Below, one piece after another: positions 10,217 through 42,962 of a stretch of DNA of 64,000 bases. Every line of letters begins with the position of its first letter. The stretch's first letter is position 1. The stretch is from Thermoleophilia bacterium. Lineage in GTDB: Bacteria > Actinomycetota > Thermoleophilia > BMS3ABIN01. The DNA lies in NCBI GenBank assembly GCA_014874175.1, contig JACWAD010000048.1:61222-125221 (forward strand), read 5' to 3'. Below the pieces are notes generated by a model. It saw only the letters and a list, made by a program, of their open reading frames with translations. It searched no databases and was not told the DNA's origin. A program made the position numbers and the translations under genes.

Positions 10217-10477
10217 CTAGCGACGACGCCTCGCCGGCCGGCCGGCGATGGCGTTGAGCACCAGCAGCAGCAGCACAGCTCCCACCGTCGCGGTGCCGAC
10301 CCAGCCCAGGAAGCTGACCGGCACGATGCCGATGAGCGATAGGAGGTAGCTGCCGATAACGGCGCCGATGATGCCAACAACAATGTCCATCAGGCAGCCG
10401 AGCCCGCCGGCGCGAGTGATAACCCCAGCCAGCCAGCCGGCGATCAGGCCGACGACTATAAACGCGAGCCAGCTCAT
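10217..10477 (-). CDS. GlsB/YeaQ/YmgE family stress-response membrane protein
   Basis: MSWLAFIVVGLIAGWLAG... 86 aa Gly-rich TM protein typical of transglycosylase-associated family. Confidence 0.85.
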   Translation of the reverse strand: MSWLAFIVVGLIAGWLAGVITRAGGLGCLMDIVVGIIGAVIGSYLLSLIGIVPVSFLGWVGTATVGAVLLLLVLNAIAGRPARRRR

Positions 10478-26670: not shown

Positions 26671-27426
26671 TCAGTTGCCGGAGATTTTCCTTCTGATCAA
26701 GGCTCCGCTGCGGGCTGCCGCGATGCGGGCGCCGTTTGCCTTCAAGTGATAGCGAAGTCTGCTTAGATAGTAGAGAAAGCCCCGTCGTGGCTCCGGGGCC
26801 GGCATCTTCGCCTGGTTATAAACCGTGCCGCGGTCGCGGGCGAAACAGGGAGAAGAGCAAAACCGCTTCAGCGGCTTCAGCCCCGGGGCTGCGCTTGCCC
26901 GCCGGATCTGGTTCATGCCCGCCTGCGCCTGCGGCAAAATCACTACGTCGATCAGCCGCCTTAGCTCACCGTCGCTTTTCCGGGTATGAGAATTTATGCG
27001 CCCGAATTGATTTAACGCCGCAAGCCAGATTTTACGGGAGTTCTCATCCGAGCAGAAGAAAAAATCAGCCATTAGGGCAGACTCCATTGCGGCTCCGGGA
27101 AGCTCCCGTTGCCGGAGGGAGGCAGAAGCAGCTCCCAGATCGACCGCAACCGGCGCGCCCGTGTTTATGATGAAAGGATGAGCTTTAATAACATCAGGAT
27201 CACAAACAACTGCATCCGAATCGCGAGCGATCATGCCAATGTTGCGGCGATTGTAGAAAACAACGGCAAAACCCGCATGAGACAGGCCGGTAAGCTCTGG
27301 CACTGCCAGGATTATATCTGCCACCCGGCTCAGCAACTCGGCCAGGCGCCAGCTACGGTTTGCGAGGTCGCTTTCCGGGACTGCCGTGCCGCTGATTACA
27401 AGCACTCTGTTCCTCCCTTTTTTCAT
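26671..27426 (-). CDS. Hypothetical protein; weak resemblance to C-terminal half of GT-B (GT4) glycosyltransferases, lacks N-terminal half
   Basis: 251 aa ORF, no competing gene; KAHPFIINTGAPVAVDLGAASASL resembles E-x7-E region; low confidence. Confidence 0.35.
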   Translation of the reverse strand: MKKGRNRVLVISGTAVPESDLANRSWRLAELLSRVADIILAVPELTGLSHAGFAVVFYNRRNIGMIARDSDAVVCDPDVIKAHPFIINTGAPVAVDLGAASASLRQRELPGAAMESALMADFFFCSDENSRKIWLAALNQFGRINSHTRKSDGELRRLIDVVILPQAQAGMNQIRRASAAPGLKPLKRFCSSPCFARDRGTVYNQAKMPAPEPRRGFLYYLSRLRYHLKANGARIAAARSGALIRRKISGN

Positions 27427-27531
27427 GATTCTTAGAGTTTACGCCTCTGTGCCCCTGAAATCGAACAAAGACCCAAACTGTCAGTAAATTTGTCTGACTT
27501 CCGCCGTTTTCTTTTCTGACAATTCTTATCC

Positions 27532-27578
27532 TTGACGTAGACTAAAACTTCGTGTGATAATTAATACCCGTCCGGGTA
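27532..27578 (+). promoter_or_regulatory. csoR promoter (TTGACG -35, GATAAT -10) with CsoR-type operator TACCC-gtcc-GGGTA immediately downstream
   Basis: -35 27532-27537, -10 27556-27561, palindrome TACCCGTCCGGGTA 27565-27578, ~90 nt upstream of csoR. Confidence 0.5.
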
Positions 27579-27672
27579 AGATGTGCTGCCCATAGGGCCG
27601 CATTCCTGCCAAAGTATCGGGCAGTTTACGCGGCCACTCGGTGAGATGTTGCCCGGTTGCGCTTAGTTGCTT

Positions 27673-27954
27673 ATGGTTGCCAAAACAGATACGGAAAAAG
27701 TGATTAACAGGCTTCGCCGGGTTGAAGGCCAGGTTCGCGGGCTGCAAAGGATGATCTCCGAGAGCAAGCCGTGTGAAGACGTACTCACCCAGCTGGCTGC
27801 CACCAGGGCTGCGCTTGACCGGGTCGGGGTTTTTCTGATCAGCAACCGGATGAAAGAATGCCTGCGAAACAGCACTGAAGAGATGGGCCTGGACGATATT
27901 GCAGTCGAAGAGGCCTTCGAGGTTTTTATGAAATATATTCAGCATGTAAAGTAA
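27673..27954 (+). CDS. csoR: CsoR/RcnR/FrmR-family metal-sensing transcriptional repressor
   Basis: INRLRRVEGQVRGLQRMISESKPCEDVLTQLAATRAALDRV - DUF156 core; second ligand position is N not H (LISNRMKEC). Confidence 0.8.
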   Translation: MVAKTDTEKVINRLRRVEGQVRGLQRMISESKPCEDVLTQLAATRAALDRVGVFLISNRMKECLRNSTEEMGLDDIAVEEAFEVFMKYIQHVK

Positions 27955-27996
27955 CGCAAACAAATTACCAGGCCTGGCCGTACAAGCGCCTTTTTT

Positions 27997-28019
27997 GCCG
28001 CCGCGAGCGGCCTTTTTTT
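27997..28019 (+). terminator. Rho-independent terminator after csoR
   Basis: GCCGC-cgcga-GCGGC followed by CTTTTTTTG; a second weaker hairpin+T6 at 27971-27996. Confidence 0.7.
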
Positions 28020-28292
28020 GTCCTGGTTTTCAAGCAAGCCCGTTTTCGTAATTCGCCGTCCGGCGCCGCGCAACCGGCGGCAGAACATATGCAAACCCAG
28101 GCAAGCCTCATTCCTGAACGAGTTGGATGACCAGTTTTCAGAAAGAGCAGCGGTCCGCCGGCTCATAATCCAAGCAAAGAAAAGGCGAAGCAGGCTGCAA
28201 GACCAAGGGCAACTGTGCTATGATTCGTGACTGTCAAACTTGCATTTGCCCGCTGGCCCCGGCAGGCCTCCTAAAGGCAGCAAACCCTCCAG

Positions 28293-30299
28293 ATGCCACG
28301 TCGGCGAAAATACAAAAGGCGCAGAAAAAGACAATCTTTACGGACAATTGGGATTGCCGTTTTTGCTGCCGGGCTGTTGTTTGCTTCGCTGATTGGAATT
28401 CAAACGGTTAAGGCTGTCGTCCACGACCTGCCCAAGCTGGACCAGGAGAATTACCTTGACCTGGGACAGACCTCCATGATTTACGCCGCCGACGGCAGCC
28501 TGCTTGCCGAGATTCACGGCAATGAAAACCGCACTGTCGTCCCCCTGTCTTCCATTCCTGCTTACCTGAAAGAGGCAACCATTGCTATTGAAGACGAGCG
28601 TTTTTACCAGCACGGCGGAGTCGATTATGAGGCTATCCTGCGCGCCCTGGCGACGGATATCAAAGAAGGACGTCTGGCGGAAGGCGGTAGTACTATAACT
28701 CAACAACTTGTCAAACAAGTTTACATTTCTGATGAACATTCATTTACGCGCAAGATTGTGGAGGCTGTGCTGGCCACTGAACTGGAACAAATCACCACCA
28801 AGGACGCGATCCTGGAGCGGTACCTGAACACGGTTTATTACGGCGCCAACGCCTATGGCGTTGAAGCCGCTGCCAGAACTTATTTCGGCAAGAGCGTGAC
28901 CCAGCTGGACCTGTCCGAGTGCGCAACCCTGGCAGGCCTGCCACAGGCCCCCTCGGCTTTTTCGCCCAAGTATGATCTTAAGGCTGCGACCGCCCGCCGC
29001 AACGCCGTCCTGCAGAAGATGGCCGATCTGGGCAACATAAGGCAAACAGAAGCTCATTACGCGGCCTCCATCCCCATTGACGTCACCAGGTCCGGCACCA
29101 CGCCCACTGCCGATTCTTACTTTGTCGAGTATGTCAAACAACAGTTAATTGACAAGTACGGTGACAAGAAAGTCATGGAGGGCGGGCTGCGTGTGTATAC
29201 AACCATCGACCCCCGCCTGCAGAGCGCCGGCCAGGAGGCGATTAACAACACGCTCGGTGAAGATGGCGACCCGGCTGCCGCCCTCGTCTCGATTGACCCC
29301 GGCAATGGTTATATCAAGGCAATGGTTTCCAGTCAGGATTTTAAGAAGTCCCAGTTTAATCTTGCCGTGCAGGGACTGCGGCAGCCAGGCTCATGTTTTA
29401 AGCCATTTGTTCTTGCAGCCGCAGTGAAAGAAGGCGTCGACCCCAAAAAGACTTATTACATGTCAAAGGAAATTGACATTCCGCTTCCCGGCGGCGGCCC
29501 TCCCTGGCATGTAGCCACCTGGGATCACAAGTACTATGGCGTCTCCAACCTGGAAGATGCGATGATACGATCGGATAACACTGTTTATGCTCAGTTGATA
29601 ATGGATATTGGGCCCGACAAGGTTCGCGACACTGCCGAAAAGCTGGGGATAAAAAGCTATATTCCGTCGAATCCATCTATCGCGCTGGGCGGCCTCGATC
29701 AGGGCGTTTCGCCGCTGGACATGGCTTCCGCCTACGCGACACTGGCCGCAGACGGCTCGTATAATAAACCGATAGCCATCACCAAGGTAGAGTTGCCGGG
29801 CGGCACAGTTGACTACCAGGCCAGCCCGCAGCCGAAGCGGGTGATCAGTGACGCGGTCGCCTATACCGTGACCCAGGTAATGGCCGAGGACATCAAGCGC
29901 GGCACCTCTTCCAGAGCCAAGATCAACAGGCCTGCCGCCGGGAAGACGGGATCGACGGAAAATCTCCAGGATGCCTGGTTTGTTGGCTATACGCCTGATT
30001 TTTCCACGTCAGTTTGGATCGGTTATCCTGACAAGCAAATCCCGATGACGGACGTGCATGGAACCAGCGTCTGGGGAAGCGGATTCCCGGTTGACATCTG
30101 GAAGAGTTTTATGATTGCCGCCGAGCAGGGCCTGCCCATTAAGGATTTCCTCAAGCCAAAGGATCAGGTCGCATTTAAAAAACTGTCCGGCCAGTACGTG
30201 CTTTTTTCTGGAGGCGAGAATCCCAGCGCCCGGCAGGATGCATACGGTCCCTCAGGGCGGACGACGCCTGAGGCAGCCGCCCCCGGCCAGAATCGATGA
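28293..30299 (+). CDS. Class A penicillin-binding protein (PBP1A, transglycosylase + transpeptidase)
   Basis: 668 aa; GT51 motif IAIEDERFYQHGGVD, transpeptidase SxxK/SxN/KTG-like motifs, N-terminal TM. Confidence 0.9.
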   Translation: MPRRRKYKRRRKRQSLRTIGIAVFAAGLLFASLIGIQTVKAVVHDLPKLDQENYLDLGQTSMIYAADGSLLAEIHGNENRTVVPLSSIPAYLKEATIAIEDERFYQHGGVDYEAILRALATDIKEGRLAEGGSTITQQLVKQVYISDEHSFTRKIVEAVLATELEQITTKDAILERYLNTVYYGANAYGVEAAARTYFGKSVTQLDLSECATLAGLPQAPSAFSPKYDLKAATARRNAVLQKMADLGNIRQTEAHYAASIPIDVTRSGTTPTADSYFVEYVKQQLIDKYGDKKVMEGGLRVYTTIDPRLQSAGQEAINNTLGEDGDPAAALVSIDPGNGYIKAMVSSQDFKKSQFNLAVQGLRQPGSCFKPFVLAAAVKEGVDPKKTYYMSKEIDIPLPGGGPPWHVATWDHKYYGVSNLEDAMIRSDNTVYAQLIMDIGPDKVRDTAEKLGIKSYIPSNPSIALGGLDQGVSPLDMASAYATLAADGSYNKPIAITKVELPGGTVDYQASPQPKRVISDAVAYTVTQVMAEDIKRGTSSRAKINRPAAGKTGSTENLQDAWFVGYTPDFSTSVWIGYPDKQIPMTDVHGTSVWGSGFPVDIWKSFMIAAEQGLPIKDFLKPKDQVAFKKLSGQYVLFSGGENPSARQDAYGPSGRTTPEAAAPGQNR

Positions 30300-30339: not shown

Positions 30340-30660
30340 TTAACGGTTCAGTGACAGGATGGAACGGTTCCCCGCCAGGGCAAGAAAAACTTCCTGAGTT
30401 AGCGGGGCCAGGATCAACCCGTGACTGCCCGTCTCGAGTGAAAGAATCCGGGGCGGGCCGCCAAGCTCTGCAGCCAGGGCCCCCGTGGCGGCCAGGGCCG
30501 AGGCGGAGTGAGCGGCCAGGGCTTCCATGTCGATGCCGCTGCCTGCTGAAACCACCAGCAGGCCGTCCCACGATACCAGTGCCGCCGCAGTGACAGATTC
30601 AATGTCGAGGTAGGGAGTAATAATTTCCGCCAATGAACGTTGTTTTTCCATGCCTGCCAT
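30340..30660 (-). CDS. Roadblock/LC7 (MglB-like) domain protein, translationally coupled to parB
   Basis: 106 aa; VTAAALVSWDGLLVVSAG ... ILSLETGSHGLILAPL pattern of Roadblock/LC7 fold; ATG overlaps parB TAA (TAATG). Confidence 0.7.
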   Translation of the reverse strand: MAGMEKQRSLAEIITPYLDIESVTAAALVSWDGLLVVSAGSGIDMEALAAHSASALAATGALAAELGGPPRILSLETGSHGLILAPLTQEVFLALAGNRSILSLNR

Positions 30661-31552
30661 TAACGGTTGTCTTCAAGAGAATCGATTATGCGGCGCAGTT
30701 CTTCATTGTTTCTGAACTCCATCTCAATGCGGCCCCCTCTGGCGCTCCAGCGGACTTTGACTGGCAGGCGAAAAGCTGAATAGAGAGCATCGGTTGCCTC
30801 ATCCATCAGTTCCTGGCCGGCAGGTATCGGGCTCGCCTCCCTGGCAGACTTGCGCTGCGGGGCCTCGCGTTTTACCCGTGCTTCCAGCTGCCGCACGGAC
30901 ATGTTGGCGGCAGCGGCTTTCGCAGCCAGGCGGCGCTGCCGGAGGCGATCCGGCACTGAAAGGAGGGCGCGCCCGTGACCTTCAGACAATCTGCCATGCT
31001 CGATAAGGGTTTGCACATCGTCCGGGAGGTCAAGCAACCGCAGGGTATTGGCTACTGCTGAGCGGCTGCGGCCCAGCTTGGCGGCCAGCTCTTCCTGCGT
31101 GATGCCGAAATCTTCCTGCAGGTTTGCGTAAGCCCGCGCCGCATCAATCGGATTTAAATCTTCCCGGCTCAGGTTTTCAATCAGGGCCAATTCCACGGAT
31201 TCGGCGTCGCCTGCGTCCCTGATCACGGCCGGGACTGTTTTCAGGCCGGCCATGCGCGCGGCGCGCCAGCGCCTCTCGCCGGCGATAATCTCAAAACTGC
31301 CGCCGGCGCGGCGCACGACTACCGGCTGCACAATGCCTACAGCCTTGATTGACGCCGCTAGTTCGGCGAGAGCCTCATCGCCGAAAGTCCGGCGCGGCTG
31401 CCCCGGATTTGAAACTATTTTATCGACAGCGATTTCCTGATATTGACCTGCAAGTTGCAAGTTGCCATTGTGGTTATTCACTTGTTGATTTTTATTCTGA
31501 TTTGTGCCAATCAAGGCCTCAAGTCCCCGGCCCAATCCCTTGCTGCTATTCA
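30660..31552 (-). CDS. parB: Chromosome partitioning protein ParB (Spo0J)
   Basis: GLGRGLEALI, ParB box IIAGERRWRAA, HTH ITQEELAAKLGRSRSAVANTLRLL; GTG start at 31552 after GGAGGTG, overlapping parA stop. Confidence 0.9.
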
Positions 31553-32337
31553 CGCTCGACCACCTCCGTGGCGAGATCGAAGTAAGCATCCGAACCGGCA
31601 CAGGTGGGATCATACCGCGATATCGGCTTGCCGTGGCTCGGAGCTTCGCTTAACCTGACATTGCGGGGAATGACTGTCTTGTAAATTAACTGCGGAAAAT
31701 GGGAACGGACCTGACTTACCACCTGGCTGGACAGATTGGTGCGGGCATCAAACATGGTCATCAGCAGGCCGGCGATCCTGAGGTTCGGGTTAAAGTTGCT
31801 CTGAACTGCAGATACAGTGGAAAGCAACTGTCCCAGTCCTTCCAAGGCGTAATATTCGCATTGGACCGGGATAATGATTTTGTCGGCTGCCACAAGGCCA
31901 TTCAGCGTGAGCAGGCTGAGAGAAGGCGGACAATCGATAAAGAGGTAATCAAAATCAGAAGAAATGCCCATGAGCGCCTTTGCTACGACAAATTCACGGT
32001 CTTCGCGGAGGGGAAGCTCAACCTCGGCGCCGGCGAGATGAGGCGTTGACGGGACCAGGAACAAGTGGGGCACTTGGGTGCCAATGATTGCTGATTCCAC
32101 GGGGGCGCCGACAGAGATGACATCATAGACAGTACGTGCGGTGCTTTCATGTATGCCTAGGCCGTGTGTTGCATTGCACTGAGCGTCGAGGTCGATGAGC
32201 AAAACGGTCGCACCTGCCTCGGCAAGACAAACGGCGGTGTTAATACAGGTTGTTGTCTTGCCTACGCCGCCTTTTTGGTTGGCAACTGCGTAGGTTTTAC
32301 CTAGACCCGCCCTCTCCCGAAATGAATTCGCCTGCAC
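31546..32337 (-). CDS. parA: Chromosome partitioning ATPase ParA (Soj)
   Basis: Deviant Walker A ANQKGGVGKTTT; 263 aa. Confidence 0.92.
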   Translation of the reverse strand: MQANSFRERAGLGKTYAVANQKGGVGKTTTCINTAVCLAEAGATVLLIDLDAQCNATHGLGIHESTARTVYDVISVGAPVESAIIGTQVPHLFLVPSTPHLAGAEVELPLREDREFVVAKALMGISSDFDYLFIDCPPSLSLLTLNGLVAADKIIIPVQCEYYALEGLGQLLSTVSAVQSNFNPNLRIAGLLMTMFDARTNLSSQVVSQVRSHFPQLIYKTVIPRNVRLSEAPSHGKPISRYDPTCAGSDAYFDLATEVVERE

Positions 32338-32391: not shown

Positions 32392-33084
32392 TTATGCGAG
32401 CGGCCTTTTTTTAGCCATGCCAGGCTTGCGTGGGAAGCGCGCCGGAGTCGGCCCTTCCTTTTTTATTAGCCAGACGTGCATGTTTCTGGCCTGATCGTAT
32501 GGATTTACAAGGGCAATGCGCTCGACGGACCCGTTCAGAGCCTGCGCCGCCAGCTGCGCCTTTTCCTCATCGCCCGGCTCTCTCTTGCCTCTCATCAGCA
32601 GGGCAAACCCCCCTGGGCGCGCCAGCGGTAGTGAATACTCGGTCGAAGCCGCAAGCTGCGCCACTGCCCTCGCCATTGAAAGGTCAAAAGAATCTCGCAT
32701 GTAAGAAGAGGCGGCATCTTCAGCGCGCATCCAAAGAACAGTGGCATTCTTAAGACCGAGTTCCCGGATGGCCCTTAACATAAAACCGCATTTCTTCCTG
32801 CTGGAGTCGATTAAGGTAAGATCAAGGCTGGGCCTGGCAATGGCAAGAGGAATTCCGGGAATCCCGGCGCCGCTGCCGATATCAACGGCATTGCCTGCAT
32901 TCACGACTTCAGGAAGGTCGAGAAGGACAAGACTGCTGCAAAGGAGAACATCCACGATTTCTGATTTGTCTTTGATAGAAGTGACGTTGGCATCACCCGC
33001 CGAATGCAGAAGGGACAAATATCTTTCCAGAAGCAGAAGCTTTTCGTCATTGAGGCCAAACCTAAGGAAGAGACGCCGCCACAT
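32392..33084 (-). CDS. rsmG: 16S rRNA (guanine527-N7)-methyltransferase RsmG (GidB)
   Basis: SAM motif DIGSGAGIPGIPLAIARP; position between mnmG and parA. Confidence 0.9.
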   Translation of the reverse strand: MWRRLFLRFGLNDEKLLLLERYLSLLHSAGDANVTSIKDKSEIVDVLLCSSLVLLDLPEVVNAGNAVDIGSGAGIPGIPLAIARPSLDLTLIDSSRKKCGFMLRAIRELGLKNATVLWMRAEDAASSYMRDSFDLSMARAVAQLAASTEYSLPLARPGGFALLMRGKREPGDEEKAQLAAQALNGSVERIALVNPYDQARNMHVWLIKKEGPTPARFPRKPGMAKKRPLA

Positions 33085-33085
33085 T

Positions 33086-35005
33086 TTATCTTTCCGGTCT
33101 TAAATAAAGAGAAAGAACGGAAATATCTGCGGGGGAAACGCCGGCTATACGTGAAGCCTGGCCCAGGTTGGAAGGGCGGAAGCGGGCCAGTTTTTCCCGG
33201 GCTTCTATCGTAATGCCCTGGAGATGCTCGAATATCATGTTTGTCGGTATTGGTGTTTTTTCGAGGGCGTTTGTGCGCCCGATTTCTGCCAGCTGGCGGT
33301 TAATGTATCCAGAGTACTTAATTTCAATTTCGGCCCGCCTGAGAATCCGGCTGTGCTCTGTCAGGGGGTGGTCCAGCAAGGGCAGAATATCGGCCATGGA
33401 GATCTCGGGACGTTTCAGCAATTGAGCCGCCGGTTGGGGTTCTGATAATGGGGCCGAGCCAATGGCGGCAAGTCGACGGTTTACATATTCGTCGGCAGGG
33501 ACCACCGTTTCTGATAAATTCGAAATCAGTTTTTCAAGATGAGCCTGGTCATTTGAAATTAAGGAAAGATCCTTATCTGCCACAAGGCCGAGGCGGTGGC
33601 CAAGAGATCCAAGCCTCGCATGCGCATTGTCGTGTCTGAGCATGAGGCGGTATTCGGCCCGGGACGTAAAAATGCGGTAGGGCTCATCCACTTCCTTTGT
33701 AACAAGGTCATCAATCAGCACGCCTATGTAGGCCTGGCTGCGCTTGAGGGTAAATGGAGAGTTGCCTTTGACAAAAAGGGCTGCGTTGATGCCAGCTATC
33801 AACCCTTGGGCTGCGGCCTCTTCATACCCCGAAGTGCCATTAATCTGGCCGGCTAGGAAAAGACCCGCAATTTTCTTGTTTTCCAGGGATAATTTCATTT
33901 GATTCGGAAAAATGTAGTCATATTCGACCGCATACCCGGGGCGAGTCAGGCGGGCTTGCTCAAGGCCCGGCGTTGCCCGGACAATTTTTTCCTGGACCCA
34001 GACCGGAAGGCTCGTCGTAAGGCCCTGTAAATACATCTCTTTCGTGTGACGTCCTTCAGGTTCAACAAAGACCGGGTGCCGGCTCCTGTCTGGAAAATTC
34101 ATAACCTTGCGGTCAATGGATGGACAGTAACGGGGGCCTTTACCGCTGACGGAGCCGCTTTTAATCGGGGAAAGATGGAGGTACTTTCGCACGACCTCAT
34201 GTGTTTTCTCCGTCGTGTAGGTGAGGTAACAGGGCATCTGAGGATGCCGATTTGGTTTTGAGAAGGGAGAAAATGTTGCGGGATTCTTGTCCCCGGGATC
34301 GATCTGCATTCTATCGGTCCGCAAGGACCGGGCATCAACGCGGGGAGGCGTTGCCGACTGGAACCTGCCGAGCTCAAGTCCTGCTTCAATCAGGCTTGAA
34401 GATAGCCCGCCCGCTGGCGGCTCCCCCATTCTGCCGGCCGGGAAAGAAAGAGCGCCGATCACAATTTTCCCCCGGAGAAAGGTGCCACAAGCGAGAATTA
34501 CAGTTTTTGCAGGGATAATACTGCCATCTATTAATTTGATGCCGTTAATTGTTTCACGTGAAACAATTATTTCCGTGGCGGTTGACTCCAGGATTTGCAG
34601 TAAGGGCTCCGAGATGAGAGCCCTTCTCATGTTGTCTTCATAAAGCTTTTTGTCTGTTTGCGCCCTCAGGGCCTGCACCGCGGGTCCCTTTCCCGTGTTC
34701 AGCATCTTCATCTGAATAAACGAACTGTCGGCATTCTTGCCCTGCTGGCCGCCGAGCGCGTCAATCTCGCGGGTTAGCTGGCCTTTTCCAATTCCACCCA
34801 CGGCTGGGTTGCAGGGCATAAGGGCGATCTTGTCAAGGTTAAGGGTAAGAAGAAGGGTCGGGCAGCCCATACGGGCGGCAGCCAGTGCTGCTTCACAGCC
34901 GGCGTGCCCGCCGCCCACAACCGCCACGTCAAACCGGGGTAACGCATTTGATTTGGTTTTACTGCTCATCCATTCACGTTCAGGAATCTGAACTCGGGCT
35001 TGCAT
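33086..35005 (-). CDS. mnmG: tRNA uridine 5-carboxymethylaminomethyl modification enzyme MnmG (GidA)
   Basis: FDVAVVGGGHAGCEAALAAARMG, CNPAVGGIGKG, GPRYCPSID, LTRPGYAVEYD, C-terminal MnmE-binding domain; start could be internal ATG at 34969. Confidence 0.95.
   Translation of the reverse strand: MQARVQIPEREWMSSKTKSNALPRFDVAVVGGGHAGCEAALAAARMGCPTLLLTLNLDKIALMPCNPAVGGIGKGQLTREIDALGGQQGKNADSSFIQMKMLNTGKGPAVQALRAQTDKKLYEDNMRRALISEPLLQILESTATEIIVSRETINGIKLIDGSIIPAKTVILACGTFLRGKIVIGALSFPAGRMGEPPAGGLSSSLIEAGLELGRFQSATPPRVDARSLRTDRMQIDPGDKNPATFSPFSKPNRHPQMPCYLTYTTEKTHEVVRKYLHLSPIKSGSVSGKGPRYCPSIDRKVMNFPDRSRHPVFVEPEGRHTKEMYLQGLTTSLPVWVQEKIVRATPGLEQARLTRPGYAVEYDYIFPNQMKLSLENKKIAGLFLAGQINGTSGYEEAAAQGLIAGINAALFVKGNSPFTLKRSQAYIGVLIDDLVTKEVDEPYRIFTSRAEYRLMLRHDNAHARLGSLGHRLGLVADKDLSLISNDQAHLEKLISNLSETVVPADEYVNRRLAAIGSAPLSEPQPAAQLLKRPEISMADILPLLDHPLTEHSRILRRAEIEIKYSGYINRQLAEIGRTNALEKTPIPTNMIFEHLQGITIEAREKLARFRPSNLGQASRIAGVSPADISVLSLYLRPER
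34547..34568. promoter_or_regulatory. parS centromere site (perfect 22-bp palindrome AATTGTTTCACGTGAAACAATT; core TGTTTCACGTGAAACA) inside mnmG
   Basis: Exact match to the Firmicutes/actinobacterial parS consensus tGTTtCAcGTGAAACa. Confidence 0.8.
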
Positions 35006-35333: not shown

Positions 35334-36398
35334 TTAAAATTTGGTTGTACAGGCAATGGTCACCGGCCTTGTTTTTCCGCAGGCAACGGCACGGCACAGC
35401 CTGGCGGCAATACTGTCAGGCTCAACCCTTGTGGCCGTCCTTGACTTGCCGGCCCGTAGTGAGGCATTCTTCCCTGCTATGGCTCCCAGGACGGCTGCTT
35501 CCGCAAAATAGCTGCAGCCGGCAGCCCTGCCGGCAAAAAAGAGCCCCGGGAGGCGCCCGGCTTCAAGGCTGGCGCCGACCTGCTTGACGGACAGGATCTG
35601 ATGATGGACGGCGTAGCCAGGCCGCGTCAACCATGGCTGCGGAAATTCGGAGCTGAGATTGCTCAGGGCAGACGCCCGGTTTCCGGCGAGCCTCGTACTT
35701 GTACCGTAAAGCTCACCCGGCACGACTTCAGGCAGCCATCGATCAGCGCCGGGGCCGCTTTTTGCTAAGCTTCTGGAGTCGAGATGAGGAGAGGAAACCG
35801 CCCGTACCCTCTCGGTGTTCACGCCAAGACCATCCAGGCAGCGGGCCAGGGCCTTGGCGGGAATCTCACTCCGGCGCCCGCCTGGGGAAAAAGAACCGCC
35901 TTCTTCTACGATCCCGCGCAAGAAGGTGCCAGCGGCTAGAACGATAGATGTTGCCATGAAGCTTTCGCCAAGGTTGGTGCCAGCAGTCCAGAATTTACCT
36001 GCCGGCTTGAGAGATGTGACAAGCGCCTGCCTGATTTCAACGTCTTCGGATTGCAGCGCCTCCTGATAGGCAAGACTGAGCTGGCGCCGGTCGGCTACCA
36101 GGGCCCCGGCGAAAGATCCGGGCGGGCATAATTCTTTTGTGCGAAGGATCCTGGGCAGCATGCCACCCATTTTGCCCAACTCTTCGATAAGCAGGTAACG
36201 AGGGTCGTCTTCACCCTCGGCCAGGACCGGGCTGCCCGGGTTAAGTCCGACGGTGTCGATGTTGATGCTTATACATAAGGATGAAGCGCCTGACCGCGCG
36301 GCTGCTGCCGACGCTTCACACCCCGCAGGTCCGCCACCGATGACCAGGACGTCGTAAACATTGTCACAATCGTTCTTATTTGCCAACACAGAATTCAC
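35334..36398 (-). CDS. Truncated MnmG/GidA-like FAD-binding protein (354 aa) lacking the insertion/catalytic-Cys region and C-terminal MnmE-binding domain
   Basis: YDVLVIGGGPAGCEASAAAARSG, AAGTFLRG, LTRPGYAVHHQ, LFFAGRAAGCSYFAEAAVLGAIAG align to MnmG motifs; CNPAIGG and RYCPS motifs absent; start overlaps mnmE stop. Confidence 0.7.
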   Translation of the reverse strand: MNSVLANKNDCDNVYDVLVIGGGPAGCEASAAAARSGASSLCISINIDTVGLNPGSPVLAEGEDDPRYLLIEELGKMGGMLPRILRTKELCPPGSFAGALVADRRQLSLAYQEALQSEDVEIRQALVTSLKPAGKFWTAGTNLGESFMATSIVLAAGTFLRGIVEEGGSFSPGGRRSEIPAKALARCLDGLGVNTERVRAVSSPHLDSRSLAKSGPGADRWLPEVVPGELYGTSTRLAGNRASALSNLSSEFPQPWLTRPGYAVHHQILSVKQVGASLEAGRLPGLFFAGRAAGCSYFAEAAVLGAIAGKNASLRAGKSRTATRVEPDSIAARLCRAVACGKTRPVTIACTTKF

Positions 36399-37752
36399 GG
36401 AAAATTTCGTCCAGCAGGTCTTCCATCATTTCCTCGCCCGTGATCTCACCCAGCGCCGTCAGCGCCGCGCGCAGCTCCTCTGAAATAATTTCTTCTCCCA
36501 GCCCCACCCGCAGGCCTTGCTGCGCCTTGAGGAGGCGCTCCGAAGCAGAGGCGAGCAGACGCTGATGGCGTTCCAGGGTTACCACGGGGCTTAAAGTGTG
36601 AGAGAAGGCTTCTCCTAAAACGAGGCGGGATATTTTTTCCTTCAGCTCGTTAAGTCCTTGACGCGTCAGGGCGGAAATTAGGACCGGCTGCGCCGGAAGC
36701 AGTCCCCGGTTAAATGATGGCGCGCGGCCGCGAAACAGGTCACATTTGTTAATTATGTAAATGGTCTTTTCCGGCAGGACCGAGGTAAGCAGGGCGCGGT
36801 CATGATCATCTTCCCGCCTGCTGCCGTCAAAAAGGCAGAGGATCAGATCTGCTTCCTTCAGCGCTTTGCGGCTGCGCTCAACGCCTATCTGTTCAACAAT
36901 GTCATCCGCAGGCGCCATGCCGGCTGTGTCAGTCAGTTGCAGGGGCACGCCGCCGACGTTGATGATCTCCTCAATGGTGTCGCGGGTAGTGCCAGGAATT
37001 TCCGTCACAATTGCCCTTTCACGCATCAGCATCGCATTGAGCAGGCTTGATTTGCCCACGTTCGGTTTGCCTACAATGGCGGTGCGGACACCCTGGCTCA
37101 GTATGCGGCCGGCAAAGGCAGACTCCGCCAGTTCCTCCAGGCACTTCTTGATCTGGGACAGGCGGGTTTCGGCTTCTTCCCGGTTGAGTTCTTCAATATC
37201 TTCATCGGAAAAATCCAGGCCAGCTTCCAGGGCGCCAAGCACAGACAGGACGCCGCGGCGAAGCGATTTTATCTCGGCAGAAAGAGACCCCTCCAGCTGT
37301 GACATTGCCAGCTTAAGCGCTGCCTCTGTCTTGGCGGATACAATCTGGGCGACGCTCTCGGCCTGGGCCAGGTCGATTCTGCCGTTTAAAAAAGCCCTGC
37401 GCGTGAATTCTCCCGGCGGCGCCAGTTCAGCGCCATGGTCCAAAAGCAGCGCCAGAATTTTTTTCTGGGCCACAGGTCCACCATGGCAGTTAACTTCCAC
37501 CATGTCTTCCCGCGTATATGTCCCGGGAGCCTTCATGACTGAAACCAGGACTTCGTCAATCACCTCCCCCGCCTCTGGGCTTACAATTCTGCCGTAGTGA
37601 AGGGTATGGGAGCCGGCTTGCTCAAGCCCGCACTTTCCCTGGAAAACGCCGCCACAAATAGTAATCGCCTCCTGGCCGGTCATGCGAACGATGCCAATGG
37701 CGCCGGCTCCCAGAGGTGTGGAGATTGCCGCTATTGTCGGGTAGTTCCGCAT
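36376..37752 (-). CDS. mnmE: tRNA modification GTPase MnmE (TrmE)
   Basis: MRNYPTIAAISTPLGAGAIGIVRMTG, G1 GKPNVGKSSLLN, G2 TTRD, C-terminal CVGK; supplied 741-aa ORF has spurious 283-aa N-terminal extension. Confidence 0.93.
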   Translation of the reverse strand: MRNYPTIAAISTPLGAGAIGIVRMTGQEAITICGGVFQGKCGLEQAGSHTLHYGRIVSPEAGEVIDEVLVSVMKAPGTYTREDMVEVNCHGGPVAQKKILALLLDHGAELAPPGEFTRRAFLNGRIDLAQAESVAQIVSAKTEAALKLAMSQLEGSLSAEIKSLRRGVLSVLGALEAGLDFSDEDIEELNREEAETRLSQIKKCLEELAESAFAGRILSQGVRTAIVGKPNVGKSSLLNAMLMRERAIVTEIPGTTRDTIEEIINVGGVPLQLTDTAGMAPADDIVEQIGVERSRKALKEADLILCLFDGSRREDDHDRALLTSVLPEKTIYIINKCDLFRGRAPSFNRGLLPAQPVLISALTRQGLNELKEKISRLVLGEAFSHTLSPVVTLERHQRLLASASERLLKAQQGLRVGLGEEIISEELRAALTALGEITGEEMMEDLLDEIFREFCVGK

Positions 37753-37774
37753 GGTGTGTATTATAACAACGGAT

Positions 37775-37802
37775 TTTGGACATTGGGCTTTGGATATTGG
37801 GC
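37775..37802. repeat. Tandem 14-nt direct repeat TTTGGAYATTGGGC x2 in mnmE/yyaL divergent promoter region
   Basis: Read directly: TTTGGACATTGGGC TTTGGATATTGGGC. Confidence 0.4.
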
Positions 37803-38061
37803 AAAAACCAAACCCATTTTTACTGAACATATAGTTATTCGGGAGAGGCTTGCCCTGAGTTTGCCTGTTTCCCCTTTCAAACAGGATGGTCAGCCTGGAT
37901 GTCGTTTGGCGCCTGGATTGTTTAAAATGTCCGGGTTGCGGCAAGCGAATGCTGGAGATCCGGCGATTATGAAAAAAGCGATGCTCTGCTTCAGCCTCCG
38001 GCGGCCGGATCTCGACAGCCCTTCGAGTTACTATATTTCTCAGGCTTCCCGGGAGAGTTGG

Positions 38062-39909
38062 ATGACTGGTAAAGGAAAGGAAAAGTTTATTTTCTCGCCC
38101 CGCCCAAACCAGGCGGCGCAAATCAGGTGGCGAGGGTGGAGCAGCCAGGCGCTGCGGCTGTCTCGCGAGCAGGGAAAACCAATCTTGCTGGTGATATCGG
38201 CCTCGTGGTGCCACTGGTGCCATGTTATGGACGAAACCTGTTTTTCTGACCCGGAGGTGATACAGTTGATCAACAGCAGATTCATACCCGTGCGTGTTGA
38301 CAGCGGTAGGAGGCCTGATATTAACAGCCGCTACAATCAGAGCGGCTGGCCAACGCTGGCATTTCTTACCCATGAAGGCGAGGTAGTTGCGAGCACCACG
38401 TATATTCCAACTGAGCAATTGAAGCGGCTGTTGACTGATATTGCCGATCTTTGCGGATCCAGCGCCAACAAGGTTAAGGAGGCCGTCCGGGAGATCCAGC
38501 GCCTGCGCCAGGAGCGCCCGCAGGCGCGGCCGGAGGAGCCGGGCCCGCAAGTCATATCCGACGTGCTCGAGGTTATGCGGCCGGAGGAGCCGGGCCCGCA
38601 AGTCATATCCGACGTGCTCGAGGTTATCGGGGAAAGTTATGACCGGGAATATGGCGGATTTGGCTGGGAGTCAAAATTCCCGTACGCCGACGCACTTGCC
38701 TTCCTGCTGACGACGCTTGCGGACGGCTATTTAGAGGCTGTTGACAATATGTTAAGAACAACGCTTGACGCCATGTCTGCCGGCGGCATGTACGACCGCG
38801 TGGAAGGGGGCTTTTTCCGGTATTCAACTGCAAGGGACTGGTCAGTTCCTCATTATGAAAAAATGCTGGCAGACAACGCCGCCTTGATGGCTGTTTACGC
38901 TAACGCATTTCTTTTAACCGGTGAGGAGGGCTACAAAAGTGTGGCCAAGGACGTCTGCTCTTATTTGCGCGCGGTGCTGCTTGACCGGCAAACGGGCGCT
39001 TTTGCCGGCAGCCAGGATGCGGATGAGCATGAGCATTATTATTCACTTGGCGCCGCAAAGCGGGCGAATAACAAAGCGCCGCGGCTGGACCGCGCGGTTT
39101 ATACGGATCAGAATGCGGCGGCCGCTTCGGCCCTGCTTCGGATGTTCCAGATATTTGACGATCCGGAGTATCGCAGTATGGCCGCAGCAGCGCTTGATTT
39201 TGTCTGGTGGCGGCTCTGGGACAGCGAATCGGGACCAAGCCATTATTATGAAGACGCAAAACCACGCTTAAGCGGGCAACTGGCCGATGCTTCCTCCCTC
39301 CTGTCGGCCTGCATGGATTCTTTCTTATGAGAGCGGCGCCGGCGAACTCTGGCTGGACAGGGCCATCCAGGCCGCGAAATGGCTGCTGGCAAGCCTTGAG
39401 GACAAGGAGAGCGGCGGCTTTTTTGATTGCTATAAGCCATTGGGCAATACCGGACTTCTGTCCGAGCGGGACAAACCAATAACAGAAAACAGCAATGCGG
39501 CCTCTGCCCTTATCCGCCTGGCCCAGTCAACCAGCATGCCAGTTTTTGGCGAGGCAGCGCGCCGGGCGCTGGCTTTTTTTGGCTCTACTTACAAGGGAAA
39601 GGCATAATAGCCGCCGGATATGCGGCTGCTGTACAACGCCTTCTGGAGCCGCCAGTGCGGGTGACGATTGTTGGTCCGGAAAGTTCCAAATCAACCAGGA
39701 TGATGATCGGCGCGGCGCACCGGGCCCGCATCCCCTTCCGTTCAGTGGAAGTGCTTGATCCGCGAACGCATGCCGAGGACCTGGAAGCTTCAGGTTTCGG
39801 ATATGCCGGCGAACCGGTGGCTTACATCTGTATCGGAACAAGCTGCCAGGCACCGGTAACCGACCCTGTTGTTCTCCCGGAACGGCTGGAAGGGAGCCGG
39901 CACCGGTAG
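38062..39909 (+). pseudogene. yyaL: Thioredoxin-domain protein YyaL/DUF255 (SPATA20-like) interrupted by two frameshifts (near 39320 and 39595)
   Basis: Three consecutive ORFs in different frames (38062-39330, 39287-39607, 39655-39909) all matching one family: ASWCHWCHVMDETCF thioredoxin motif, GGFFD..., C-terminal ICIGTSCQAPVTDP. Confidence 0.65.
38527..38628 (+). repeat. Perfect in-frame 51-bp tandem duplication (RPEEPGPQVISDVLEVM/I x2) inside yyaL-like gene
   Basis: Two adjacent 51-nt copies differing at 1 nt. Confidence 0.85.
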
Positions 39910-40121
39910 CCGGTGTTCTTTCTACTACCATAAGGCTCAACTTTAGGCTTATCCTCCTTACGGGCGAATTTTTGCAATTTGCGCAATAAACTTTATTCTC
40001 TGGCTCTTTACCGGTCAGCACCATAGTTATAGCATTCAGAAATGCAGGAAAAAAGTCAAAAGACACGAAATGTTGTATATTCAAATTTATTAAGCCCAAT
40101 ATCTTGTTGACAGCAGGCTAT

Positions 40122-40568
40122 CTTGTGAAGTGCCCATTTTGTGAGTCTCAAGAAACGAAAGTAGTGGATTCCCGCGACAACGAAGTTCGGGATGCTATAC
40201 GGCGGCGGCGGGAGTGCCTTAATTGCGGGCGCCGCTTTACCACATACGAGCGGGTTGAAGAAATCCCCCTGTCTGTAATCAAGCGGGGAGGCGAGCGGGA
40301 AGTATTTTCCCGCTCCAAGCTTCTGGAAGGGTTGATGAGGGCCTGCGAAAAACGCCCCGTTGAGGCCGGCATGCTGGAGAAATTCGTTGACGCAATTGAA
40401 GCTGACTTGCGCAATGAATTCAAGACCGAAGTGCCTTCCGCAGAGATTGGAGAAAGAACTTTGGCGAAATTAAAAAATCAGGACAAGGTCGCATATGTGC
40501 GTTTTGCATCGGTATACCGGCATTTTGAGAACGTGGAAGAGTTTCAGAAGGAGCTCTTGGAATTGTGA
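40122..40568 (+). CDS. nrdR: Transcriptional repressor NrdR
   Basis: GTG start MKCPFCESQETKVVDSRD... zinc ribbon + ATP-cone; supplied ORF starts 18 nt earlier at TTG. Confidence 0.9.
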   Translation, partial: LVKCPFCESQETKVVDSRDNEVRDAIRRRRECLNCGRRFTTYERVEEIPLSVIKRGGEREVFSRSKLLEGLMRACEKRPVEAGMLEKFVDAIEADLRNEFKTEVPSAEIGERTLAKLKNQDKVAYVRFASVYRHFENVEEFQKELLEL

Positions 40569-40676
40569 CATAATCATGATTCCGTGGTGGGGACCCATGG
40601 AAGCAGCCGCGCCGCGCCTTCCGTCCGGCGGGCGGCATATAATATTTCACCGGCGGTAGCTGAAAGGGGAAGAAAA

Positions 40677-42962
40677 ATGTTAGTCAACCAGCGTCAAGGA
40701 GTTGCCGGCAAGGGTCCCCGCGTCTCTGCCCTGCCACTTCAGCCCCAGCTTTCTCCAAACGCGGTAAAAGTACTGGAAAAACGGTATTTGAAGAAGGATG
40801 AGGAAGGCAGGCCCATTGAGACTCCGGCGGAGATGTTCCGGCGCGTGGCGCGCACCATCGCCGGGGCCGATCTGCTTCACAATCCGGATGCTGACGTGGA
40901 GGCCGCCGAGGAGGAATTTTACCGCATGATGACCAGGCTGGAATTTCTTCCCAACTCGCCCACCCTGATGAACGCCGGCCGGGAGCTGGGCCAGCTGTCC
41001 GCCTGTTTTGTACTGCCTGTTGGCGATTCCATGGAAAGCATTTTCACTGCTATCAAGCATACCGCCCTGATTCACAAAAGCGGCGGCGGCACCGGCTTCT
41101 CGTTTTCCCGCATCCGGCCCAGCAAAGATGTGGTGCTGTCAACTAAAGGAGTCTCTAGCGGACCAATCTCTTTTATGACGGTCTTCGATGCCGCCACAGA
41201 GACCATCAAGCAGGGCGGCACCCGCCGCGGCGCCAACATGGGCATTCTGCGTGTGGATCATCCTGACATCCTCGGTTTCATCACGGCCAAGCAAAGCAAT
41301 GACCGTCTTAACAATTTCAATATCTCAGTGGCCCTGACCGAGAATTTTATGGAGGCGGTGGAGCTTGACAGCGAGTATGACCTCATCAACCCGCGCACAG
41401 GCGAGAAAGCAAATACGCTCAAGGCGCGGCGGGTCTTTGAAATGATCGTAAATATGGCCTGGAAAAATGGCGACCCGGGCATCATTTTCATTGACCGGGT
41501 AAACCGCGACAATCCTACACCCCACATAGGTGAGATTGAGAGCACCAATCCCTGCGGCGAGCAGCCTCTGCTGCCTTATGAATCTTGCAATCTGGGCTCG
41601 ATTAACCTCGCCCGGGTAGTTGATTCATCAGGTGAGGTTGACTACGGACATCTGGGCCGTCTCGTGGATAGCGCTGTGCATTTCCTGGACAATGTCATTG
41701 ATGTCAACAAATATCCGCTCGCTGAGATCGAGAAGATGACCAGGGGAAACCGCAAGATCGGCCTGGGACTAATGGGGTTTGCCGACATGCTCATTGAACT
41801 CGGCATTCCCTACAGCTCGGACCAGGCAGTGGAGGTGGCGGAGGAGGTCATGGCTTTTATCCAGGAGGAGGCGCGCAAGAGCTCGGAGCGCCTGGCGCGC
41901 GAACGGGGAGCTTTCCCTAACTTCAGCGGCAGCGTTTTTAGTTCCAATGGCAGGCCCGAAGTGCGCAACGCCACCACTACCACAATTGCTCCCACGGGCA
42001 CGCTCAGCATTATCGCGGGCTGCTCAAGCGGCATTGAGCCCCTGTTTGCCGTTTCCTATATCAGGAACGTGCTTGATAACACGGAAATGGTTGAGGTGCA
42101 TCGCGCTTTTGAACAGGCGGCAAAGGACGGCGGTTTTTACAATGAAGAATTAATGAAAGAGATCGCAAGGAAAGGCAGCATCCAGGATTTGCCTGAGGTT
42201 CCGGACGAAATCAAGTCATTATTTGTGACTGCTCATGACGTTACCCCCGAATGGCACGTTCGCATGCAGGCGGCTTTTCAGAAGTACACTGACAATGCTG
42301 TTTCAAAAACGGTGAATTTTGCCCACGGCGCCACAACTGCAGACGTTGAACAGGTTTACAAACTTGCCTACAGGACCGGTTGCAAGGGGGTCACCATCTA
42401 CAGGGACGGCAGCCGCGAGGTGCAGGTGCTAAATATCGGCGGAGTTAAGGGGAAAGAGGCGGTGGCTGTGCCAGGGCAGGTTAAGCCGCGGCCCCGCCCC
42501 GGTTTTATAACGGGCGGTACCCATAAACTCGCTTCCGGTTGTGGCAACATCTACGTAACCATCAACCAAGATGAGCACGGCTTGTTTGAGGTCTTCTCTT
42601 CCATGGGGCTGGCCGGCGGCTGCAAGGGGGCCCAGTCGGAGGCGATCGCCAGGCTGATATCTCTGGCTCTCAGATCAGGAGTTGCCGTTGATGCGGTGAT
42701 AAAGTCCGTCAAGGGAATTCGCTGTCCGACACCTGGGTTCGGCGAGGGGGTCAAGGTAAATTCTTGCCCGGACGCGATCGCGCAGGCCCTGCTGGCGCAT
42801 TTGAAAAAAATGCCGCATCTGGCAGACGGCGCAGTGGCGGGATTGCCATCATCAGCCGAGTTGGCCCACTGCCCTGAGTGCCCCGAATGCGGCAGCACAG
42901 GCCTCGAGTTTGGTGAAGGGTGTGTTTTTTGCCGTTCCTGTGGATTTTCACGCTGCGGCTAG
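40677..42962 (+). CDS. nrdJ: Adenosylcobalamin-dependent ribonucleoside-diphosphate reductase (class II, NrdJ) with C-terminal zinc ribbon
   Basis: [37 protein letters not shown] active-site region, C-terminal CPECPECGS...CVFCRSCG; ATG at 40677 after AAAGGGGA. Confidence 0.9.

What the first reader, a model, noticed from the sequence alone, without database searches (positions are those of the whole stretch)
34547..34568. Perfect 22-bp parS palindrome inside mnmG
AATTGTTTCACGTGAAACAATT (core TGTTTCACGTGAAACA) is an exact match to the canonical parS consensus. It lies within the mnmG coding sequence, about 3 kb from parB. This placement is typical of origin-proximal parS sites and supports this window being near oriC. 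I found only one copy in the window.
Basis: partly seen in the sequence, partly recalled or inferred. Interest (0 to 1): 0.5.

Follow-up and report, generated by a model that had tools for sequence, protein, structure and literature searches.

The report
Conserved parS centromere site inside mnmG
The palindrome is a genuine chromosome-partitioning (parS) site embedded in the coding sequence of the tRNA-modification gene mnmG, kept letter-for-letter in all related genomes examined; it is a well-known kind of element, so it is solid but ordinary.

Summary
AATTGTTTCACGTGAAACAATT lies at 34547-34568. The perfect palindrome is in fact 24 bp (34546-34569) and is the longest in the window. Its core is an exact match to the parS consensus TGTTNCACGTGAAACA and is the only match with 3 or fewer mismatches in 64 kb.

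The site lies in mnmG (33086-35005, minus strand), covering codons I147 to T152. It is 2.9 kb upstream of parB, in an mnmG-rsmG-parA-parB gene string.

Eighteen related actinobacterial MAGs (Thermoleophilia/Gaiellales-like, MnmG 59-81% identical) all carry the site at the same codons: 17 perfect, 1 with a synonymous change. The 16 nt are the longest conserved nucleotide run in the gene (16, next best 5). Their synonymous positions are frozen even where these codons are rare. MnmG of other phyla has no VSRET motif there. So selection acts on the DNA.

The adjacent ParB has the GERRWRAA CTP motif and parS-type specificity residues (R, T, D, G).

Proximity to oriC is not shown for this genome. 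There is no dnaA and no DnaA-box cluster in the window, and GC skew is ambiguous. Three more distant relatives do have dnaA and a DnaA-box cluster about 6-9 kb away.

Verdict: a real parS and a new member of a known kind, of low to moderate interest.

The parts
34550..34565 (.). parS core, TGTTTCACGTGAAACA, proposed ParB nucleation (loading) site
   Evidence: It is an exact match to the consensus and the only match with 3 or fewer mismatches in the window. It is identical in 17 of 18 relatives at the same mnmG codons, and it is the longest conserved nucleotide run in the gene.
34546..34569 (.). Full 24-bp perfect palindrome TAATTGTTTCACGTGAAACAATTA (core plus 4-bp symmetric flanks)
   Evidence: The flanks vary among relatives but are palindromic at positions +1 to +4 in 10-12 of 19 sequences.
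33086..35005 (-). mnmG (gidA), the host gene; parS covers the third base of codon I147 plus V148-S149-R150-E151-T152
   Evidence: TIGR00136 at 789 bits, reading frame, alignment with relatives.
32392..33084 (-). rsmG (gidB), lying between mnmG and parA and probably in the same transcription unit
   Evidence: TIGR00138 at 120.7 bits, above its cutoff. It abuts the mnmG stop codon. The order is conserved in relatives.
31546..32337 (-). parA (soj), the ParA-family partition ATPase
   Evidence: ParA/MinD-family hits. It is 55-93% identical and syntenic in relatives.
30660..31613 (-). parB (spo0J), the CTP-dependent clamp proposed to bind this parS (the longest ORF; the true start may lie a little downstream)
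   Evidence: - TIGR00180 at 191.6 bits (cutoff 58); the Noc model scores below its cutoff.
- Best PDB relatives are the ParB/Spo0J proteins of Myxococcus, Bacillus, Caulobacter and Thermus.
- It carries GERRWRAA and ENLSREDL.
- R184, T190, D195 and G212 align with Caulobacter R173, T179, A184 and G201.

Best explanation
The palindrome is a chromosomal parS centromere site. Dimers of the ParB encoded 2.9 kb downstream recognise the 16-bp core through their helix-turn-helix domains. On binding CTP they close into clamps, leave parS and slide over the neighbouring kilobases (mnmE to parB). The resulting partition complex is moved by the ParA ATPase and typically also loads SMC condensin.

Because the site lies inside mnmG, the DNA requirement dictates both the codons and the peptide (I/x)-V-S-R-E-T at a normally variable turn of the MnmG FAD domain.

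Shown here:
- the sequence identity of the site;
- clade-wide conservation beyond what coding requires;
- the presence of a parS-type ParB and a ParA.

Inferred from established ParABS biology:
- actual ParB binding;
- CTP-dependent spreading;
- the segregation and SMC-loading role.
For: 1. The site is an exact match to TGTTNCACGTGAAACA. This is the consensus listed for actinobacterial and other chromosomal parS sites in the review PMC7022226. It is unique in the window.

2. All 18 actinobacterial relatives found with MnmG carry one parS at the identical codon position. MnmG identity is 59-81% and mnmG nucleotide identity 58-75%. Seventeen sites are perfect and one has a synonymous TCA>TCG change.

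3. In the codon alignment, the 16 nt form the longest run of columns that are at least 94% conserved (16, next best 5). At 232 invariant amino-acid columns the mean major-codon share is 0.56, and only 10 columns reach 0.94. Five of those ten are the consecutive parS codons.

4. The codons GTT, TCA, CGT, GAA and ACA are kept even in relatives with GC-rich mnmG, where they make up only 2-16% of their synonymous families. GAA is the exception at 28-46%.

5. The peptide VSRET is not a MnmG requirement. E. coli has VENDR and Firmicutes/Bacteroidota have V/I-E/K-D/N-N/G-K at that position. The residues on both sides vary freely within the clade.

6. The synteny mnmG(parS)-rsmG-parA-parB is conserved in all relatives whose contigs are long enough.

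7. The ParB has the CTP-binding GERRWRAA motif and the HTH. It has R, T, D, G at the four positions shown to set parS versus NBS specificity. Position 173 must be R, position 201 is G or another small residue, position 179 can be anything except P, D or E, and position 184 can be anything.

8. Firmicute loci retrieved in the same scan carry the same 16-mer next to their parAB/noc genes, but at other positions. This shows the motif tracks parAB and not mnmG.
Against: - There is no direct binding evidence.
- Origin proximity, a usual property of parS, is not demonstrated for this genome: no dnaA and no DnaA-box cluster within 29-34 kb, and GC skew is ambiguous.
- Only one site is visible. Many bacteria have several, and whether this genome has more cannot be seen from 64 kb.
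- The relatives are not independent samples, so the naive probabilities overstate significance.
Confidence: 0.9

Rival explanations
1. It is a chance palindrome, or one preserved only because MnmG needs the peptide IVSRETI, with no function as DNA.
For: The site lies in a coding region, and the five amino acids are invariant in the clade.
Against: - Synonymous positions are frozen across 19 sequences whose genes are only 58-75% identical, while other invariant residues use mixed codons (mean major-codon share 0.56).
- The codons are rare ones in the GC-rich relatives.
- MnmG from other phyla has different residues there.
- The exact 16-mer is the known parS and is expected about 1e-5 times per window (my arithmetic from the composition).
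- No 24-bp palindrome appeared in 30 shuffles.
Confidence: 0.01
2. It is an RNA hairpin in the mnmG mRNA (10-12 bp stem) that acts on translation, mRNA stability or processing rather than as a DNA site.
For: - The transcript folds into the expected hairpin. The 80-nt context has an MFE of -18.5 kcal/mol and a z-score of -2.5.
- In some relatives the flanking positions co-vary so as to extend the palindrome.
- The single variant (A>G in L026) would keep a G-U pair.
Against: - Any palindrome gives such a hairpin.
- The 16-nt core shows sequence invariance with no compensatory changes at all, over a divergence at which structured RNAs normally co-vary.
- The invariant sequence is exactly the ParB recognition sequence, and a parS-type ParB is encoded next to it.
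- The same 16-mer occurs in intergenic DNA beside parAB in Firmicute loci.
- No Rfam family matches.
Confidence: 0.03
3. It is a genuine ParB-binding site, but its main role is regulatory. ParB loaded inside the operon that encodes it would feed back on transcription of mnmG-rsmG-parA-parB, with segregation served by other parS sites elsewhere.
For: - The site lies 2.2-2.9 kb upstream of parA and parB within what looks like one transcription unit: adjacent or overlapping ORFs and no terminator signal above chance.
- The linkage is conserved in the whole clade.
- ParB spreading is reported to repress nearby genes in other bacteria (abstract of PMC4010829).
Against: - There is no evidence here for any transcriptional effect.
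- Chromosomal parS sites close to parAB are the rule in bacteria, where they serve segregation (PMC7022226).
- The two roles are not exclusive.
Confidence: 0.08
4. It is the target of a different DNA-binding protein, such as a Noc-like ParB paralogue or a transcription factor that recognises CACGTG.
For: The ParB also scores on the Noc model (237.7 bits).
Against: - That score is below the Noc cutoff of 315, while the ParB model is far above its own cutoff.
- The specificity residues are R and G (parS type), not Q and R (NBS type).
- According to PMC7383237, noc arose only in Firmicutes.
- The whole 16 bp is conserved, not only CACGTG.
Confidence: 0.02

Closest known systems
Chromosomal parS sites of Bacillus subtilis (Spo0J/ParB sites; consensus TGTTNCACGTGAAACA), one of which lies inside the spo0J coding sequence (Lin and Grossman 1998, from my own knowledge)
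   Same: The same 16-bp palindrome, an intragenic location, and closeness to the parAB genes. The ParB here aligns with Spo0J (PDB 6sdk, E = 4e-53) and shares GERRxRAA and the HTH.
   Different: Here the host gene is mnmG, not parB. Only one site is seen in 64 kb, whereas B. subtilis has about ten. The organism is an uncultured deep-branching actinobacterium.
Actinobacterial parS clusters (Corynebacterium glutamicum with 10 sites, Streptomyces coelicolor, Mycobacterium), as tabulated in PMC7022226
   Same: The same consensus, TGTTNCACGTGAAACA, the same phylum, and a ParAB-dependent segregation system.
   Different: Those genomes have clusters of several sites next to oriC and dnaA. Here a single site is seen, inside mnmG, with no dnaA within 29-34 kb. 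From my own knowledge, most of those model actinobacteria lack mnmG altogether.
Caulobacter crescentus ParB-parS (co-crystal 6S6H/6T1F; CTP-gated clamp, PMC7383237 and PMC8367383)
   Same: The DNA-binding domain aligns without gaps at 57% identity. The key residues R173 and G201 are conserved as R184 and G212.
   Different: Position 184 is D instead of A, which is tolerated according to the deep mutational scan. Nothing has been tested biochemically here.
Pseudomonas aeruginosa gidAB-parAB operon with parS1-4 (PMC13438810)
   Same: The same gene string, gidA(mnmG)-gidB(rsmG)-parA-parB.
   Different: In P. aeruginosa the essential parS sites lie about 10-20 kb away from parAB, not inside gidA, and an origin-like region overlaps gidA. 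Here the parS is inside mnmG and there are no DnaA boxes nearby.
Noc-NBS nucleoid occlusion system of Firmicutes
   Same: A homologous protein fold and a related palindromic site.
   Different: The NBS sequence is different. The specificity residues here are of parS type, and the Noc model scores below its cutoff. This site is not a member of that family.

Membership tests
chromosomal parS (ParB centromere site) | 16-bp inverted repeat matching TGTTNCACGTGAAACA | tested here: met
   Exact match at 34550-34565 with 0 mismatches. Consensus as listed in PMC7022226.
chromosomal parS (ParB centromere site) | A cognate ParB with a parS-type DNA-binding domain is encoded in the same genome | tested here: met
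   parB at 30660-31613. TIGR00180 at 191.6 bits. The HTH aligns with Caulobacter ParB, with R, T, D, G at the four specificity positions.
chromosomal parS (ParB centromere site) | A partner ParA ATPase is present | tested here: met
   parA at 31546-32337, with ParA/MinD-family hits, syntenic in relatives.
chromosomal parS (ParB centromere site) | Conservation as DNA, beyond any overlapping coding constraint | tested here: met
   - Same position in 18 of 18 relatives.
- Longest conserved nucleotide run in the gene, with frozen synonymous sites.
- Rare codons retained in GC-rich relatives.
chromosomal parS (ParB centromere site) | Location in the origin-proximal domain of the chromosome | tested here: inconclusive
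   - No dnaA and no DnaA-box cluster in the window.
- The in-window cumulative GC-skew minimum is at 31,567, but there is no side effect at third codon positions.
- Relatives L012, L013 and L015 have dnaA and a DnaA-box cluster 6-9 kb from their site.
chromosomal parS (ParB centromere site) | Specific binding by ParB and nucleation of a spreading complex | not testable with these tools
   Needs ChIP-seq, EMSA/BLI or CTP-dependent clamp-loading assays.
ParB/Spo0J CTPase clamp (the protein partner) | N-terminal CTP-binding arginine patch GERRxRA and the ENLxR box | tested here: met
   GERRWRAA and ENLSREDL are aligned with the same motifs in Myxococcus ParB (7bnk) and B. subtilis Spo0J (6sdk).
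Noc-NBS (considered and rejected) | Q and R at the positions equivalent to ParB 173 and 201, K at 179 and 184, and the NBS palindrome | tested here: not met
   The residues here are R184 and G212, with T190 and D195. TIGR04285 scores 237.7 against a cutoff of 315. The site is parS, not NBS.

The most novel reading that the evidence does not exclude
In this uncultured Thermoleophilia-like clade the mnmG-embedded site may be the sole chromosomal centromere. It would be an ancient, self-contained parS-parAB cassette that stayed intact when the block was separated from dnaA/oriC. It has forced a fixed VSRET peptide onto MnmG. It would also act as an autoregulatory ParB loading point inside the operon that encodes ParA and ParB.
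Probability: 0.12. Interest if true: 0.4.

Novelty: new member of a known kind. Interest (0 to 1): 0.2.

Why it matters
The site marks the chromosome-segregation centromere of an uncultured deep-branching actinobacterial lineage. It also gives a clean example of a DNA-binding site overriding protein-coding freedom: five codons of a housekeeping enzyme are frozen, including rare codons, across genomes whose MnmG is only about 60% identical.

In practice it is a useful landmark for annotating these MAGs, and for ordering their contigs if the site proves origin-proximal. It shows that the parS-parAB module is inherited as a unit even where it is no longer next to dnaA. It does not change what is known about ParABS systems.

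Tried and rejected
- **Source contig:** An exact look-up with MnmG and with the 769-aa ORF at the right end found nothing. The sulfur-transport ORF at the left end found only 4-5 kb Logan contigs, which add RNase R and a CtpB-like protease but no dnaA.
- **oriC in the window:**
  - DnaA-box scans with TTATCCACA, TTGTCCACA, TTWTNCACA and TTNTCCACA gave no cluster; the maximum was 3 boxes per 600 bp, against 6-7 in L012, L013 and L015.
  - The 867-bp gap at 27426-28293 has no boxes in those scans and by eye holds a small ORF (my reading).
  - GC skew was regressed on gene strand and side. The side effect was +0.04 (t about 2.2-2.7) for all positions, but -0.01 (t about -0.2 to -0.3) at third codon positions. 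This is inconclusive.
- **Extra or degenerate parS:** There are none with 3 or fewer mismatches. The half-sites GTTTCAC and GTTCCAC are not enriched.
- **RNA explanations:** No tRNA or tmRNA and no Rfam family at gathering thresholds. The hairpin fold is the trivial consequence of a palindrome.
- **Promoter and terminator scans:** Counts over 30.0-40.2 kb were at chance level.
- **Literature:**
  - Livny et al. 2007 is not held.
  - Full-text searches for parS with gidA/mnmG, and for parS with Thermoleophilia, listed no title or abstract describing a parS inside mnmG or parS sites in this clade. Only PMC13438810 was opened from these searches.

Full report
**Observation**

The sequence AATTGTTTCACGTGAAACAATT is at 34547-34568 as reported. 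The perfect palindrome is one base longer on each side: TAATTGTTTCACGTGAAACAATTA, 34546-34569, 24 bp. It is the longest perfect palindrome in the window. The next are 20, 18 and 16 bp, and 30 shuffles produced none of 24 bp or more.

The 16-bp core TGTTTCACGTGAAACA (34550-34565) is the only match in 64 kb even when 3 mismatches are allowed. The next best sites have 4 mismatches. An exact match is expected about 1e-5 times in a window of this composition (my arithmetic from the GC content).

**Context**

The site lies in ORF 33086-35005 (-), which is MnmG (TIGR00136, 789 bits). Downstream on the same strand are rsmG (32392-33084), parA (31546-32337) and parB (30660-31613). Upstream are a 354-aa paralogue with only the N-terminal GidA domain (35334-36398) and mnmE.

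On the coding strand the palindrome reads ATA ATT GTT TCA CGT GAA ACA ATT AAC, which encodes I146 I147 V148 S149 R150 E151 T152 I153 N154. The centre of the site is 2.94 kb from the parB start.

The window carries housekeeping genes (secA, a class I peptide chain release factor (PCRF/RF-1 domains), hisG, ahcY, nrdJ, topA, tmk, holB), so it is chromosomal. No tRNA or Rfam family was found.

**Relatives**

One scan of species-representative genomes with MnmG returned 27 loci. Eighteen are actinobacterial MAGs labelled Thermoleophilia, Gaiellales or 'Actinomycetes', with MnmG 59-81% identical. Nine are Firmicutes or Bacteroidota, at 45-50%.

Every one of the 18 actinobacterial loci has exactly one parS-like site in the DNA held, up to 22 kb per locus. 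It always lies at the same mnmG codons. Seventeen are perfect, and L026 has TCA>TCG, which is synonymous. None of the nine other loci has a site inside mnmG. Where they have the 16-mer, it lies beside rsmG/parA/parB. The order mnmE-(GidA-like)-mnmG-rsmG-parA-parB is conserved throughout the clade.

**Selection acts on the DNA, not the protein**

- The mnmG genes of the 19 sequences are only 58-75% identical in nucleotides to the window. Yet CDS nucleotides 441-456, exactly the parS core, form the longest run of columns that are at least 94% conserved: 16, with the next best 5.
- At 232 columns with an invariant amino acid other than M or W, the commonest codon accounts on average for 56% of sequences. 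Only 10 columns reach 94% or more, and five of them are the consecutive codons V148-T152: GTT 19/19, TCA 18/19, CGT 19/19, GAA 19/19, ACA 19/19.
- In the relatives with GC-rich mnmG (0.60-0.64 GC) these A/T-ending codons are rare elsewhere in the gene: GTT 3-16%, TCA 3-13%, ACA 2-10%. They are nevertheless retained.
- The residues flanking VSRET vary freely within the clade.
- MnmG from E. coli has VENDR at this position, and Firmicutes/Bacteroidota have V/I-E/K-D/N-N/G-K.

The peptide is therefore dictated by the DNA motif and not the reverse. The relatives share ancestry, so naive probabilities overstate the case, but the contrast with the rest of the same gene is internal and robust.

**The binding protein**

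The ParB ORF passes the ParB model (191.6 bits, cutoff 58) and fails the Noc model (237.7 bits, cutoff 315). Its closest solved relatives are the ParB/Spo0J proteins of Myxococcus, Bacillus, Caulobacter and Thermus (E = 1e-53 to 4e-48). It shares with them GERRWRAA, the CTP-binding arginine patch, and ENLSREDL.

Jalal et al. 2020 (PMC7383237) showed that four residues set parS versus NBS specificity. In Caulobacter ParB these are R173, T179, A184 and G201. R at 173 is invariable for parS binders, G or another small residue is preferred at 201, anything but P, D or E is allowed at 179, and anything at 184. I confirmed the Caulobacter segment against PDB chains 6S6H and 6T1F and aligned it without gaps to the window ParB. 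The equivalents are R184, T190, D195 and G212, which is a parS-type signature.

**Mechanism**

The steps below are inferred from established ParABS biology and were not tested here. ParB dimers nucleate on the 16-bp core. CTP binding closes them into clamps that escape parS and slide over neighbouring DNA. The resulting complex is segregated by ParA and usually recruits SMC (PMC7022226, PMC8367383, PMC13438810).

Because the site sits in what looks like a single mnmG-rsmG-parA-parB transcription unit, ParB loading might also influence expression of its own operon. The ORFs abut or overlap, and terminator-like signals are at chance level. This is speculation.

**Origin proximity**

- No dnaA is present in the window, either by family scans of all large ORFs or by a DnaA signature search in six frames.
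- No DnaA-box cluster exists. The maximum is 3 relaxed boxes per 600 bp.
- The cumulative G-C minimum within the window is at 31,567, close to the site, but the left arm is almost flat.
- When gene strand is controlled for, the left/right difference (+0.04, t about 2.2-2.7) vanishes at third codon positions (t about -0.2 to -0.3).
- Gene orientation changes from mostly minus to the left of about 38 kb to mostly plus (10-11 of 18-19 genes) to the right. This is compatible with an origin but does not prove one.
- In the three most distant relatives (L012, L013, L015), dnaA lies about 8-9 kb upstream of the mnmG parS, and a cluster of 6-7 DnaA-box-like motifs lies about 6 kb from it. The arrangement in those relatives is therefore origin-proximal.
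- In the window's own sub-clade, the classical block upstream of mnmE has been replaced by a thioredoxin-like gene and nrdR-nrdJ.

**Rivals**

- Chance, or purely protein-driven conservation, is excluded by the codon analysis.
- An mRNA hairpin is a trivial property of any palindrome. It does not explain sequence invariance without covariation, nor identity with the ParB recognition sequence.
- A Noc-like or other binding protein is contradicted by the specificity residues and the model scores.
- A mainly regulatory role for ParB at this site is possible, is not exclusive of segregation, and is untested.

**Novelty**

parS sites, including intragenic ones close to parAB, are textbook. The full-text searches listed no title or abstract describing a parS inside mnmG or parS sites in Thermoleophilia-like bacteria, and only one of the listed papers was opened. 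I therefore file this as a new member of a known kind. The clade-wide freezing of five MnmG codons is a tidy illustration of dual constraint but is not surprising to a specialist. Interest 0.2.

Noticed in passing
window 35334-36398 (-): A 354-aa protein consisting essentially of the N-terminal FAD-binding part of GidA/MnmG (Pfam GIDA positions 1-203 of 391) sits between mnmE and the full-length mnmG. It overlaps the end of mnmE. It is conserved at that position in the closer relatives (36-61% identity) but absent from L012, L013 and L015. Its function is unknown. PDB 2cul ('GidA-related protein, probable oxidoreductase', Thermus) may be a relative.
   Followed up: partly
window 30340-30660 (-): A Roadblock/LC7-domain protein (106 aa) lies immediately downstream of parB, sharing its stop/start boundary. 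It is conserved there in about half of the relatives, at 48-77% identity.
   Followed up: partly
window 37600-42962, and loci L001-L011, L014, L024, L026: The classical origin-region block (dnaA, expected alongside rpmH-rnpA-yidC-jag) is not upstream of mnmE. Instead there is a divergently oriented thioredoxin-like DUF255 gene and nrdR-nrdJ. This synteny is conserved across the sub-clade. Only L012, L013 and L015 keep dnaA and a DnaA-box cluster upstream.
   Followed up: partly
window 34546-34569; L004 near 4499; L005 near 9654; L008 near 10900; L010 near 409: The flanks of the parS core vary between lineages but often stay symmetric, giving 24-28 bp perfect palindromes. The flanking amino-acid pairs then co-vary: I..I (ATT/ATT), D..S (GAT/TCT), N..L (AAT/TTG). 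Flank positions +1 to +4 are palindromic in 10-12 of 19 sequences, against about 25% expected. Intergenic Firmicute sites (L018, L025) also have AGA...TCT flanks. This may reflect extended ParB contacts or shared ancestry.
   Followed up: partly
window 55271-57337 (+): The topoisomerase I gene scores above the curated cutoff of the archaeal-type topA model (TIGR01057, 490 bits against 458; NF005555, 928 bits) and below that of the bacterial topA model. The phosphoglucosamine mutase and PGI/PMI genes also score well on archaeal-named models (TIGR03990 407 bits, below its 439-bit cutoff; TIGR02128 275.5 bits, above its cutoff).
   Followed up: no
window 36376-38601 (-) and 37597-39330 (+): The longest mnmE ORF is 741 aa from a TTG start, but the MnmE model covers only residues 289-741. 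The extension overlaps a long plus-strand ORF whose thioredoxin-like domain starts only at residue about 172. Both long ORFs are probably over-extended, and the true genes probably diverge from a shared intergenic region around 37.7-38.1 kb.
   Followed up: no
window 8279-8298 and 10231-10248: Two further GC-rich perfect palindromes: 20 bp GAGGCCGCCATGGCGGCCTC and 18 bp TCGCCGGCCGGCCGGCGA. The 20-bp one lies inside the ORF with the transketolase N-terminal domain. The 18-bp one lies just after the ORF ending at 10209 and could be a terminator stem.
   Followed up: no
window 12751-14445 (-), 61676-63985 (-), 44554-45761 (-): Large ORFs of 564, 769, 188 and 214 aa have no Pfam match at E<=1e-5.
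   Followed up: no
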